Sequence record: OQ626344
From: Escherichia phage S127 BCL3
DNA length: 64,000 nucleotides
Direction: 5' to 3' (one strand)
The notes below the pieces were generated by a model. The model did not search any database, was not told where the DNA came from, and saw only the letters and a list, made by a program, of their open reading frames with translations. Below, piece after piece: positions 11,243 to 11,545 of this stretch (within the stretch, counting starts at the first letter, position 1; every line of letters starts with the position of its first letter). Made by a program: the position numbers and the translations under genes.

Positions 11243-11270
11243 TTGACATTCTTGCCTATCTTGATAAAAT
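11243..11270 (+). promoter_or_regulatory. sigma70-type promoter with no ORF downstream
   Basis: TTGACA-16-TAAAAT. Confidence 0.6.
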
Positions 11271-11277
11271 TAAGTTC

Positions 11278-11545
11278 TTCTCTTTTCTTTTACCGAGTAA
11301 TTCGGGTTTTCTGTTCTCTTCGGTTTGAAGGGGTATGGAGATACACCTGAGTGAACAGGGTGAACAACCGAACCTTTAGCTATGGCATTAGCATGGCGAA
11401 GCGGACGGGTGACGAAAGAGGGGCCGGAGGACACCAGTCACTGCCATATAGTATATGGGTGATAACCTGAAGAGTCTGAATAAGTGTTTAAGTACCAGTC
11501 AGAGGAAAAGGTGAATGGTAGCCGAAGGGGGAGGGGGGTTTCTTA
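11278..11545 (+). ncRNA. candidate non-coding transcript (purine-rich, nested helices); ends not defined
   Basis: Starts downstream of the 11243 promoter; no SD or ORF. Pairings TATGGCA (11381-87) / TGCCATA (11442-48) and GTGAC (11409-13) / GTCAC (11437-41); GAAA/GAAG loops. Confidence 0.3.

What the first reader, a model, noticed from the sequence alone, without database searches (positions are those of the whole stretch)
11243..11545. Promoter-driven purine-rich segment with nested helices and no ORF: candidate ncRNA
A good promoter (TTGACA-16-TAAAAT) fires into about 270 nt that lack any SD-ATG combination.
The segment has long-range complementarity: TATGGCA 11381-87 with TGCCATA 11442-48, enclosing GTGAC 11409-13 with GTCAC 11437-41. 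It also has several GAAA/GAAG-type loops (GCGAAGC, GACGAAAG, GCCGAAGG) and ends in a G-rich run (GGGGGAGGGGGG) before an AT-rich stretch.
I could not match it to any RNA family from memory.
Basis: seen in the sequence. Interest (0 to 1): 0.5.

Follow-up and report, generated by a model that had tools for sequence, protein, structure and literature searches.

The report
Conserved noncoding unit near phage terminus
A 340-bp stretch of an rV5-like coliphage, nearly identical in every sequenced relative, has a strong host-type promoter that should fire a ~265-nt purine-rich transcript with no conserved ORF, ending in a G5AG6 run about 570 bp before the genome's terminal repeat; it is real and uncharacterised, and whether it acts as a free RNA or as an R-loop/primer at the genome end is untested.

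Summary
The window is a Vequintavirus (rV5-like coliphage). The promoter belongs to a class found 22 times against 1.3 expected, always co-oriented with the local genes.

The block 11203-11543 is the best-conserved part of this locus: 96-100% identity in 19 distinct copies, against 83-93% for the neighbouring genes. It has sharp edges at the inferred transcription start and just after the G run. It is the most purine- and G-rich 212 nt of the 64 kb.

It matches no Rfam family, no protein family and no host DNA, and BLAST finds it only in this genus. The nested helices fold no better than shuffles. Covariation cannot be tested because the sequences barely vary.

The surrounding 2.5-kb "non-coding" box of rV5 is the genome-end region. 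The 459-bp terminal repeat of phage Gotham maps to 12108-12566, so the promoter fires toward the right end.

My best reading (0.38) is a cis-acting terminal transcription unit that forms an R-loop or primer at a G tract like mitochondrial CSB II. A diffusible ncRNA is nearly as likely (0.33).

The parts
11209..11239 (+). Invariant 13-bp hairpin just upstream of the -35. It uses U-G and G-U pairs, so it is stable only in the + sense.
   Evidence: Fold z = -4.2, with 0 of 200 shuffles as stable. In the 19 sequences, 12 of 13 pairs never vary and one changes A-U to G-U.
11243..11270 (+). Sigma-70 promoter: -35 TTGACA at 11243-48, TG at 11262-63, -10 TAAAAT at 11265-70. The inferred transcription start is about 11277.
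   Evidence: Scores 11/12 plus TG. This promoter class occurs 22 times against 1.3 expected, always co-oriented with the genes. In IMGVR_3300010279 both hexamers and the TG are kept while the spacer has 8 substitutions and grows from 16 to 18 nt.
11277..11543 (+). Conserved, ORF-free, purine-rich transcribed block: the candidate RNA or R-loop-forming segment.
   Evidence: Identity is 96-100% per 50-nt bin, against 83-93% in the flanking genes. Invariance begins at 11277 and ends just after the G run. Rfam gives no match. Pfam gives no match, and PHROGs gives only one insignificant hit (E = 0.1) to an ORF that runs past the block.
11277..11291 (+). All-pyrimidine 5' tract, CUUCUCUUUUCUUUU. It can pair position by position with the 3' purine tract 11524-11538.
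   Evidence: Read from the sequence. The 12 tested pairs are standard or wobble in all 19 sequences, including the G-run length variants. The pairing also forms in the whole-RNA MFE.
11289..11364 (+). Long imperfect 5' hairpin of 30 pairs, many of them G-U.
   Evidence: Fold z = -2.3. Its only two substitutions in paired positions keep pairing (G-U to A-U, and A-U to G-U); a third substitution falls in an internal loop.
11373..11378 (+). Hypervariable 6-nt patch, with 7 alleles among the 16 sequences first aligned, inside otherwise invariant sequence.
   Evidence: Alignments.
11381..11448 (+).
   Evidence: They are present, but the segment folds no better than shuffles (z = -0.5). All 12 pairs are invariant.
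11358..11513 (+). GGGTGA at 11358, 11407 and 11457, and AGGTGA at 11508, about 50 nt apart.
   Evidence: One search finds 20 GGGTGA sites on both strands of the 64 kb, three of them here with spacings of 49 and 50 nt. The significance is only a rough post hoc estimate.
11527..11538 (+). G5AG6 tract on the non-template strand, followed by TTT. It marks the 3' edge of the conserved block.
   Evidence: Unique in the window and the top G4Hunter score. Alleles are G5AG5, G5AG6, G6AG6, G6AG7 and G6AG8, and the A is always kept. LL12-type genomes diverge just after GGGGGGTT. Human mtDNA CSB II is GGGGGAGGGGGGGTTTG (PMC4176368).
11544..11650 (.). A+T-rich spacer. Its sequence varies but its composition is kept.
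   Evidence: The 100 nt after the run are 69-72% A+T in all variants, including the non-homologous LL12 version. Identity drops to 0.82 here.
11650..12000 (+). C-rich, G-poor tract. It would act as a rut-like Rho loading region for rightward RNA. It holds the C-richest window of the 64 kb.
   Evidence: Positions 11650-11799 contain 45 C and 7 G. The C maximum is at 11758. It is less conserved than the element, at 0.83-0.97.
12108..12566 (.). Segment homologous to the 459-bp direct terminal repeat of Vequintavirus Gotham, that is, the physical genome ends or concatemer junction.
   Evidence: PMC7471380. The repeat_region features of MT682716 map to window 12108-12566. Conservation changes sharply at 12566-12572.

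Best explanation

Proposed sequence of events:
1. Host sigma-70 RNA polymerase starts at about 11277 and makes a G- and purine-rich RNA of about 265 nt.
2. The RNA's 5' pyrimidine tract and long hairpin fold.
3. The RNA's body favours staying hybridised to the C-rich template as an R-loop.
4. The RNA ends, or switches fate, at the G5-6AG5-8 tract on the non-template strand. There a hybrid DNA:RNA G-quadruplex next to a T-rich, A+T-rich stretch stalls or terminates transcription, as at mitochondrial CSB II.
5. Polymerases that pass the tract are stopped by Rho in the C-rich tract at 11650-12000.
6. The product acts in cis. It gives the phage's T7-like replisome an opened duplex or a 3'-OH about 570 bp before the right terminal repeat, and/or it sends transcription into the concatemer junction to help end duplication or packaging. 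This is the role played in T7 by promoters near its ends.

What is shown: the promoter quality, the conservation and its boundaries, the composition, the form of the G tract, and the position relative to the terminal repeat.

What is inferred: that transcription happens at all, the RNA's 3' end, R-loop and G-quadruplex formation, and any link to replication or packaging.
For: - Promoter. It scores 11/12 plus TG. Its class is enriched 22 against 1.3 expected, and all members are co-oriented with the genes. The hexamers are kept while the spacer changes.
- Conservation. It starts at the inferred +1 and stops just after the G run. Against rV5 alone the element is 97.7% identical, compared with a 91.3% mean, putting it in the top 3% of 300-nt windows.
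- Strand asymmetry, which points to a single-stranded function. This is the G- and purine-richest window of the 64 kb. It is also the most RNA:DNA-hybrid-favouring 200 nt on the + strand (z about -4).
- Mirror arrangement. The mirror-image tract on the - strand at 11941 ranks third overall for hybrid stability. Three of the six strongest G4Hunter sites lie within 11517-11970.
- G tract. Its form matches CSB II, including the flanking GAAG and TTT. Its length varies but the A is always kept, and the downstream A+T richness survives a sequence swap.
- Related genus. Septuagintavirus-like phages keep an invariant G5AG5AG5 followed by an A+T-rich block in the homologous region, on the same relative strand.
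- Position. The Gotham terminal repeat maps to 12108-12566, so the promoter points at the right end.
- Replisome. rV5 encodes a T7-like DNA polymerase and a primase/helicase.
- Precedent. In T7, RNA polymerase pausing at the concatemer junction starts maturation and packaging (PMC3276506).
- Fold. The 5' hairpin and the terminal pairing are compatible with every observed substitution.
Against: - There are no transcript, R-loop or replication data for any Vequintavirus (literature searches).
- An R-loop needs composition, not sequence. Near-invariance of all 265 nt is not explained unless the RNA must also fold or be bound by a protein.
- CSB II-type termination is documented for mitochondrial and T7 RNA polymerases, not for E. 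coli RNA polymerase.
- The element sits at a convergent gene junction. The GC-skew turn there is terminus-like, not origin-like.
- Septuagintavirus-like phages lack the element at the homologous position, and BLAST finds it in no other phage group. A core replication or packaging part would be expected to be more widespread.
- Defined 459-bp ends are reported for one phage only. Other authors describe the group as circularly permuted or headful-packaged.
- The hybrid-stability ranking follows from base composition. It also used nearest-neighbour values that I recalled from memory.
Confidence: 0.38

Rival explanations
1. The element encodes a diffusible, trans-acting early ncRNA. A stable RNA of about 265 nt is closed by pairing of its 5' pyrimidine tract with its 3' G tract. 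It is G-rich and C-poor, so it escapes Rho, and it is trimmed back to the G tract after Rho terminates transcription downstream. It then binds a conserved host or phage partner as a decoy, sponge or regulator. On this view its place at the end of the rightward gene block is incidental.
For: - The same promoter and boundary evidence applies.
- Nucleotide-level invariance of the whole transcribed block fits an RNA read by a conserved partner better than it fits a composition-only R-loop.
- The 5' hairpin has z = -2.3, and all substitutions are compatible with it.
- Restriction to one genus fits an accessory gene.
- A hypervariable 6-nt patch sits inside invariant sequence.
- A related phage, PhiTE, carries a functional anti-defence ncRNA (PMC3475682).
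- The rut-like tract right after the block gives a plausible terminator.
Against: - Two thirds of the RNA fold no better than shuffles (z from -0.5 to +1).
- There is no Rfam match even at E <= 10.
- There is no intrinsic terminator.
- No complementary 12-mer to the element exists elsewhere in the window, and it has no similarity to E. coli DNA.
- SD-like motif density is explained by dinucleotide composition (54 of 500 shuffles reach it).
- The rival does not explain the CSB II-like tract, the conserved A+T-rich sequel, or the mirrored G/C-rich architecture next to the terminal repeat.
Confidence: 0.33
2. The element is a double-stranded DNA site for a phage protein, for example the small terminase or another end-recognition or end-protection factor. 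The protein would contact the RGGTGA hexamers spaced about 50 bp apart. On this view the promoter is secondary.
For: - GGGTGA occurs three times with spacings of 49 and 50 nt, plus AGGTGA 51 nt further on.
- Invariance also extends upstream of the promoter, to 11203-11242.
- The element lies inside the genome-end region.
- Invariant DNA would be expected if it co-evolves with a conserved terminase.
Against: - A 66% purine bias on one strand over 212 nt, and hairpins that depend on G-U pairs, are properties of single strands, not of duplex binding sites.
- The block lies 570 and 1030 bp from the two repeat boundaries.
- The sister genus, which shares this terminal-region layout, lacks it.
- The significance of the hexamer spacing is post hoc.
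Confidence: 0.1
3. The element is passive transcription housekeeping at a convergent junction. It would serve as a 3' UTR or stabiliser of the rightward early operon. Its C-rich complement would serve as a rut site that stops leftward read-through.
For: - Most genomes have no terminator between ORF163 and the element; only this phage and NHEP1 carry the 25-nt hairpin insertion there. Upstream transcripts therefore probably enter the element.
- The antisense RNA would be 35% C and 16% G.
- The + strand rut-like tract follows directly.
Against: - rut sites and UTR spacers are constrained in composition, not at every base. The neighbouring C-rich tract shows exactly that looser pattern (0.83-0.97), whereas the element is near-invariant.
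- This reading does not explain a dedicated strong promoter or the conserved form of the G tract.
Confidence: 0.1
4. The element encodes a small protein. Candidates are the 39-aa and 36-aa + strand ORFs, the 54-aa antisense ORF, or the 21-codon ORF starting at 11514.
For: - Automatic pipelines call tiny CDSs here in some records.
- GAGG, 9 nt, then ATG at 11514 looks like a ribosome-binding site.
Against: - Pfam gives no match, and PHROGs gives only one insignificant hit (E = 0.1).
- G-run indels shift the frame of the 11514 ORF.
- Substitutions show no third-position pattern, and in the variable patch they are mostly non-synonymous in the + strand and antisense frames I translated by hand.
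- Most curated records annotate no gene here.
Confidence: 0.03

Closest known systems
Human mitochondrial CSB II (G5AG7) transcription-termination and primer-formation element
   Same: - A G5-6AG5-8 tract lies on the non-template strand about 250 nt downstream of a promoter.
- It is flanked by GAAG upstream and TTT downstream. The phage has GAAGGGGGAGGGGGGTTT; the mitochondrial RNA is GAAGCGGGGGAGGGGGGGUUUGG.
- The tract length is polymorphic.
- The replisome it would serve is T7-like.
   Different: - The polymerase would be the multisubunit E. coli enzyme, for which this termination mode is not documented.
- No CSB I or CSB III equivalents were identified.
- No R-loop or primer data exist.
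- The resemblance is a 15-18-nt motif, not homology.
Phage T7 end-proximal promoters and the transcription-primed primary origin (phiOR/phiOL; phi1.1A/B plus an A+T-rich region), and RNA polymerase pausing at the concatemer junction
   Same: - A promoter near the genome end fires toward the terminal repeat.
- An A+T-rich stretch follows.
- The phage has a T7-like DNA polymerase and a primase-helicase.
- In T7, transcription into the junction starts maturation and packaging (PMC3276506).
- The details about phiOR and the primary origin come from my own knowledge.
   Different: - rV5-like phages have no annotated RNA polymerase of their own in the 46 kb of rV5 examined, and the promoter is of the sigma-70 type.
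- About 265 nt of invariant transcript has no T7 counterpart.
- There is no sequence similarity.
ColE1 RNA II pre-primer
   Same: - A host-polymerase transcript of a few hundred nt would have to have its sequence conserved.
- A G-rich stretch helps form a persistent hybrid with the template (from my own knowledge).
   Different: - No antisense RNA I promoter lies inside the element.
- No origin has been mapped here.
- Rfam's plasmid RNA families do not match.
PhiTE pseudo-ToxI and other phage-encoded ncRNAs
   Same: It is a non-coding RNA locus in an rV5-related myovirus, and it is genus-restricted.
   Different: The element has no tandem 34-36-nt repeats and no similarity to ToxI-type antitoxins. 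Its function is unknown.

Membership tests
Any Rfam 15 RNA family | A covariance-model match at the gathering score, or failing that a weak hit at E <= 10 | tested here: not met
   There are 0 hits in the whole window at gathering scores. At E <= 10 in 10900-13800 there are only chance miRNA-type hits, none of them inside 11243-11545.
Classical sRNA with an intrinsic terminator | A G+C-rich hairpin directly followed by a U run at the 3' end | tested here: not met
   No terminator-like site is found at 11500-11560. The only one inside the unit is a weak 5-bp hairpin at 11293-11305 near the 5' end. The T run after the G tract is lost in LL12-type genomes.
CSB II-type G-quadruplex termination/primer element | A G5-6AG6-8 tract on the non-template strand downstream of a promoter, followed by a T tract | tested here: met
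   G5AG6 plus TTT lies at 11527-11541, about 250 nt after the inferred transcription start. The alleles keep the GnAGm form. The reference sequence is quoted in PMC4176368.
CSB II-type G-quadruplex termination/primer element | Transcription stops at the tract, with a hybrid G-quadruplex or R-loop and RNA-to-DNA transitions downstream | not testable with these tools
   This needs in vitro transcription, DRIP mapping and 5'-end mapping of nascent DNA.
T7-type transcription-primed origin or end-proximal promoter | A promoter near a genome end that points into the terminal repeat, followed by an A+T-rich region | tested here: met
   The transcription start at about 11277 lies 831 nt before the repeat homologue at 12108-12566. 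The 100 nt after the G tract are 72% A+T. The ends are known for Gotham only.
T7-type transcription-primed origin or end-proximal promoter | Recognition by a phage-encoded single-subunit RNA polymerase | tested here: not met
   The promoter matches the sigma-70 consensus. No RNA polymerase gene is annotated in the 46 kb of rV5 examined. The rV5 paper attributes transcription to host-type promoters.
ColE1 RNA II / RNA I system | An antisense regulator promoter inside the pre-primer | tested here: not met
   No - strand promoter-like site lies within 11243-11545.
Type III antitoxin-like repeat RNA (ToxI / pseudo-ToxI) | Tandem near-identical repeats of about 34-36 nt | tested here: not met
   The repeat search finds no tandem family inside the element.
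CRISPR-repeat mimic (RNA anti-CRISPR) | A repeat-like stem-loop that matches a host CRISPR repeat | tested here: inconclusive
   No Rfam CRISPR-DR hit appears at E <= 10. By eye, GTCACTGCCATATAG resembles the 5' half of a type I-F repeat that I recalled from memory, but the 3' arm of that stem is absent. I compared it with no repeat database.
Protein-coding gene | A conserved reading frame and a protein-family match | tested here: not met
   No significant family match exists. The 11514 ORF is frame-shifted by G-run indels.
Rho-dependent terminator (for the tract downstream of the element) | A C-rich, G-poor untranslated RNA of about 80 nt or more | tested here: met
   Positions 11650-11799 hold 45 C and 7 G, and the C-richest window of the 64 kb is at 11758. 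Actual termination was not tested.

The most novel reading that the evidence does not exclude
A myovirus without its own RNA polymerase uses host RNA polymerase together with a mitochondrial-CSB-II-like G5-6AG5-8 hybrid G-quadruplex switch. The switch turns a conserved terminal transcript into an R-loop or primer for its T7-like replisome next to the terminal repeat. This would couple transcription to replication of the genome end, duplication of the repeat, or packaging. It would be a bacterial-virus counterpart of mitochondrial heavy-strand priming.
Probability: 0.2. Interest if true: 0.8.

Novelty: new variant of a known kind. Interest (0 to 1): 0.55.

Why it matters
rV5-like phages are widely isolated and are used in therapy and biocontrol. 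Their 2.5-kb "non-coding" box has been left unexplained since the rV5 genome paper.

This work places that box at the genome ends. It also picks out its one near-invariant module, a promoter-driven transcript ending in a CSB-II-like G tract. That gives concrete, cheap experiments on how these phages start replication or process their ends, or on a new early phage RNA.

If the G-tract switch works with E. coli RNA polymerase, it would extend a mechanism known from mitochondria and T7 RNA polymerase to bacterial transcription.

There is also a practical point for annotation. The tiny CDSs that some pipelines call here are very probably spurious.

Tried and rejected
- **Rfam.** Nothing at gathering scores or at E <= 10. 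No tRNA or tmRNA.
- **Whole-RNA and long-range folding.** 11277-11560 gives z = -1.2, its antisense z = -0.3, and 11277-12030 (G-rich domain pairing with C-rich domain) z = +0.4. No thermodynamic signal.
- **Covariation.** It cannot be tested: 62 of 67 pairs are invariant and there are no double-sided changes.
- **Distant homologues.**
  - BLAST in distant mode against phages finds only Vequintavirus.
  - Three IMG/VR scans and one metagenome scan return only near-identical copies plus chance 18-mers.
  - nhmmer on Seunavirus, Mydovirus, Certrevirus, Septuagintavirus-like and phAPEC8 loci finds nothing significant.
  - The weak A7_1 hit turned out to align with window ~11900-12130, not with the element.
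- **Host mimicry.** No match in 5,426 E. coli genomes. The single plasmid-database hit is a mislabelled phage genome.
- **Anti-SD or ribosome sponge.** SD-like density is the highest in the window, but dinucleotide composition explains it.
- **Antisense target in the window.** No complementary 12-mer.
- **Small ORFs.** No significant family match, and frames are not conserved.
- **CsrB-like sponge, ToxI-like array, CRISPR-repeat mimic.** The defining repeats or hairpins are absent.
- **Paralogue elsewhere in the window.** None.
- **Literature.** I found no transcriptome or ncRNA study of Vequintavirus.
- **GC skew as an origin marker.** It is confounded by the switch in transcription direction, as the rV5 authors also noted.
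Full report
**Identity of the window.** A megablast of 11100-13700 hits 121 phage records, essentially all rV5-like coliphages of the genus Vequintavirus. The best hit is ECP32 at 97.7%. The finding lies at the left edge of a stretch from 11103 to 13661 that holds no annotated or convincing gene. This stretch separates a rightward block of small genes, ending at 11102, from a leftward block whose last gene ends at 13662. The rV5 genome paper draws this region as a grey "non-coding" box and offers no explanation (PMC3606486). Curated records annotate no gene there. A few pipelines fill it with tiny CDSs.

**Checking the observation.**
- The promoter is TTGACA, a 16-nt spacer, then TAAAAT, with a TG two bases before the -10 (11/12).
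- Sites of this quality occur 22 times in the window, against 1.3 +/- 1.3 in composition-matched random sequence. All 22 point the same way as the local gene block. This one is therefore very probably a working promoter, the last of the rightward block.
- The 212 nt from 11330 are 66% purine and 35% G. This is essentially the purine- and G-richest window of the 64 kb on either strand; the maxima lie 3 nt away at 11327, and 0.04% of windows reach this value.
- The G5AG6 run is unique in the window.
- The nested helices exist, but their segment folds no better than shuffles (z = -0.5 and +0.1). The 3' third gives z = +1.0, and the whole RNA gives z = -1.2.
- Only a 76-nt 5' hairpin at 11289-11364 stands out, with z = -2.3.
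- One claim needs correcting. An SD-ATG exists (GAGG, 9 nt, then ATG at 11514, opening 21 codons), but G-run length changes break its frame in other phages.

**Conservation.** I aligned this locus from 15 related genomes and contigs, then aligned the element itself from 19 distinct copies (alignment A1).
- Identity per 50 nt is 0.94-1.00 from 11200 to 11550. It is 0.83-0.93 in the upstream genes, 0.60-0.88 just before the element, and 0.82 just after it.
- Against rV5 alone, the element is 97.7% identical where the 43-kb mean is 91.3%. That places it in the top 3% of 300-nt windows, level with the best-conserved core genes.
- The edges are sharp. In the most divergent copy (IMGVR_3300010279) the -35, the TG and the -10 are intact. 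The spacer carries eight substitutions and two extra bases, the six bases after the -10 carry three substitutions, and invariance resumes exactly at 11277.
- At the other end, LL12-type genomes switch to unrelated sequence just after GGGGGGTT.
- This is the footprint of selection on a promoter plus its transcribed product.
- A 6-nt patch at 11373-11378 is hypervariable, with seven alleles among the 16 sequences first aligned. A hairpin loop at 11450-51 also varies.

**Structure.** Covariation cannot be assessed.
- The five one-sided changes all keep a standard pair.
- Of 13 variable columns outside the G run, two lie in predicted pairs, and both are compatible with pairing. By my hand calculation this is weak support at best, p about 0.05.
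- The 5' all-pyrimidine tract 11277-11291 can pair position by position with the 3' purine tract 11524-11538, so the conserved block has complementary ends.
- The hairpins rely on G-U pairs. They are therefore stable only in the + sense, which argues for a rightward RNA.

**What it is not.**
- It matches no Rfam family at gathering scores or at E <= 10, and it is not a tRNA or tmRNA.
- The small ORFs have no Pfam match, and the only PHROGs hit is insignificant (E = 0.1).
- There is no similarity to 5,426 E. coli genomes or to plasmids.
- There are no tandem repeats of the ToxI kind, no paralogue in the window, and no complementary 12-mer target in the window.
- Its SD-like motif density is the highest in the window, but dinucleotide composition explains it.
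- BLAST in distant mode, three IMG/VR scans, a metagenome scan, and nhmmer on loci from other Vequintavirinae genera and phAPEC8 found only near-identical Vequintavirus copies. The element is genus-specific.

- The repeat features of MT682716 map to window 12108-12566.
- Conservation is high through the right boundary. It collapses into a copy-number-variable TGACA array from about 12572.
- Several independent GenBank records start or end within about 100 nt of these boundaries. I derived this from the coordinates, and it is approximate.
- The "non-coding box" is therefore the genome-end or concatemer-junction region. Its order is: last rightward gene; the element; an A+T-rich spacer; a C-rich, G-poor tract at 11650-12000; the terminal repeat; a repeat-rich left arm; and then the leftward genes.
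- The promoter fires toward the right physical end. The inferred start is 831 nt before the repeat.
- One caution applies. Other authors describe rV5-like genomes as circularly permuted or headful-packaged, so the end structure of the genus is not settled.

**Features that point to a single-stranded, end-related role.**
- The G tract has the same form as human mitochondrial CSB II. The phage has GAAGGGGGAGGGGGGTTT; CSB II is GGGGGAGGGGGGGTTTG, within the RNA GAAGCGGGGGAGGGGGGGUUUGG (PMC4176368). At CSB II, a hybrid DNA:RNA G-quadruplex on the G-rich non-template strand terminates transcription and yields replication primers. This happens with both mitochondrial and T7 RNA polymerase.
- The phage tract varies in length (G5AG5 to G6AG8) but always keeps the A. 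The next 100 nt stay about 70% A+T even where the sequence has been swapped.
- Septuagintavirus-like phages lack the element. They keep an invariant G5AG5AG5 followed by a conserved A+T-rich block on the same relative strand of the homologous region. In W70, homology begins 23 nt before that run, at the sequence that corresponds to the Gotham repeat boundary.
- Using nearest-neighbour values that I recalled from memory, the element is the most RNA:DNA-hybrid-favouring 200 nt on the + strand (z about -4). The mirror-image tract on the - strand at 11941 ranks third overall. Three of the six strongest G4Hunter sites lie within 11517-11970. These rankings largely restate the base composition.
- rV5 encodes a T7-like DNA polymerase and a primase/helicase.
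- In T7, RNA polymerase pausing at the concatemer junction starts maturation and packaging (PMC3276506). From my own knowledge, T7 also has end-proximal promoters and a transcription-primed, A+T-rich primary origin.

**Verdict.** I am fairly confident, at roughly 0.8, that this is a genuine promoter-driven non-coding transcription unit under strong selection. Its mechanism is open.
- I rank first (0.38) a cis-acting terminal role. The G-rich transcript forms an R-loop and stops or switches at the CSB-II-like tract. This gives the T7-like replisome or the packaging machinery an entry point just before the right terminal repeat, with Rho clearing read-through in the C-rich tract.
- The main weakness of that reading is that R-loops need composition, not 265 invariant bases. 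The element is also absent from sister genera and sits at a convergent junction.
- A diffusible early ncRNA bound by a conserved partner explains the invariance and the genus restriction better. It leaves the G tract, the A+T tail, the mirrored architecture and the location unexplained (0.33).
- A duplex protein-binding array (0.10), passive UTR/rut housekeeping (0.10) and a small protein (0.03) fit less well.
- A cis/trans complementation test on promoter and G-tract mutants, together with 5'/3' end mapping and in vitro transcription in K+ versus Li+, would separate these readings.

Noticed in passing
window 12108-12566: This segment is homologous to the 459-bp direct terminal repeat of Vequintavirus Gotham, so the rV5 'non-coding box' is the genome-end or concatemer-junction region. 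Several GenBank Vequintavirus records start or end near these two boundaries. Other papers call the group circularly permuted or headful-packaged, so the literature conflicts.
   Followed up: partly
window 12545-12625: An array of TGACA motifs (TTGACA, TGACA, TGACG) starts right after the repeat's right boundary. It is indel-rich, and its copy number varies between phages. It could be a terminase or packaging recognition array.
   Followed up: partly
window 10806, 11466, 11880, 11915, 11997 (+ strand): CCTGAAGAG occurs five times in 1.2 kb on one strand; the whole window has 7 copies against 0.6 expected. Related CCTNNNGAG motifs and an exact CCTGAAGAG occur in the homologous region of phage A7_1 (L045). 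Its function is unknown, and it does not consistently form a hairpin.
   Followed up: partly
window 12341, 12655, 12670, 13157 (+ strand); also 11598: CTGTTTACG occurs four times in and beside the terminal repeat, against about 1 expected in 64 kb. A related CTGTTTACC sits 60 nt after the G run.
   Followed up: no
window 12706-13015: This region has iteron-like architecture. CAAGGCAACTAT boxes alternate in orientation at 12830, 12852, 12890 and 12998. There is an 18-nt perfect inverted repeat at 12815-12832 / 12949-12966, and a 20-nt perfect direct repeat, GCCATGCCATTCGTTTGCAT, at 12706 and 12980. It could be an origin or a protein-binding region in the left arm.
   Followed up: no
window 11650-12000: This is the C-richest, G-poorest tract of the 64 kb on the + strand (maximum at 11758). 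It includes CCCCACCCCC at 11813 and CCCCTCCCCGCC at 11956, which are complementary to the G run. The ACCC(C)TCCC(C)GCC motif is shared with Septuagintavirus-like phages and with Cronobacter Certrevirus phages (CR3, PBES 02).
   Followed up: partly
L045 6771-6787; L046, L047, L048: Septuagintavirus-like phages (A7_1, A73, W70, LTH01) carry an invariant G5AG5AG5 run followed by more than 170 nt of almost invariant A+T-rich sequence that contains promoter-like TTGACT...TAGAAT. In W70, homology starts 23 nt before the run. The gene numbering of A73 and W70 wraps at this gap.
   Followed up: partly
window 11110-11134: A 25-nt insertion forms a terminator-like hairpin (GCCTGCTTTGCAGG plus TTT) after the last rightward gene. 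It is present only in this phage and in NHEP1. In the other 14 genomes and contigs aligned, the upstream operon has no obvious terminator before the element.
   Followed up: no
window 9347-9354 (+): The only exact Chi site (GCTGGTGG) in the window lies about 3.2 kb from the inferred right end. Its orientation is the one that would be read by RecBCD entering from that end.
   Followed up: no
window 13662-14081 (-): The first leftward gene (rV5 ORF164) is shared at about 90% amino-acid identity with phAPEC8-like phages of another subfamily, where it is also followed by a 1.5-kb gene-free stretch of unrelated sequence. Gotham, FV3 and some others lack this gene.
   Followed up: partly
database records: About 18 records named 'Campylobacter phage' (MG0656xx, UNVERIFIED) and one E. 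coli 'plasmid' (CP057073, 137.6 kb) are Vequintavirus genomes by sequence. They are probably mislabelled or contaminants.
   Followed up: no
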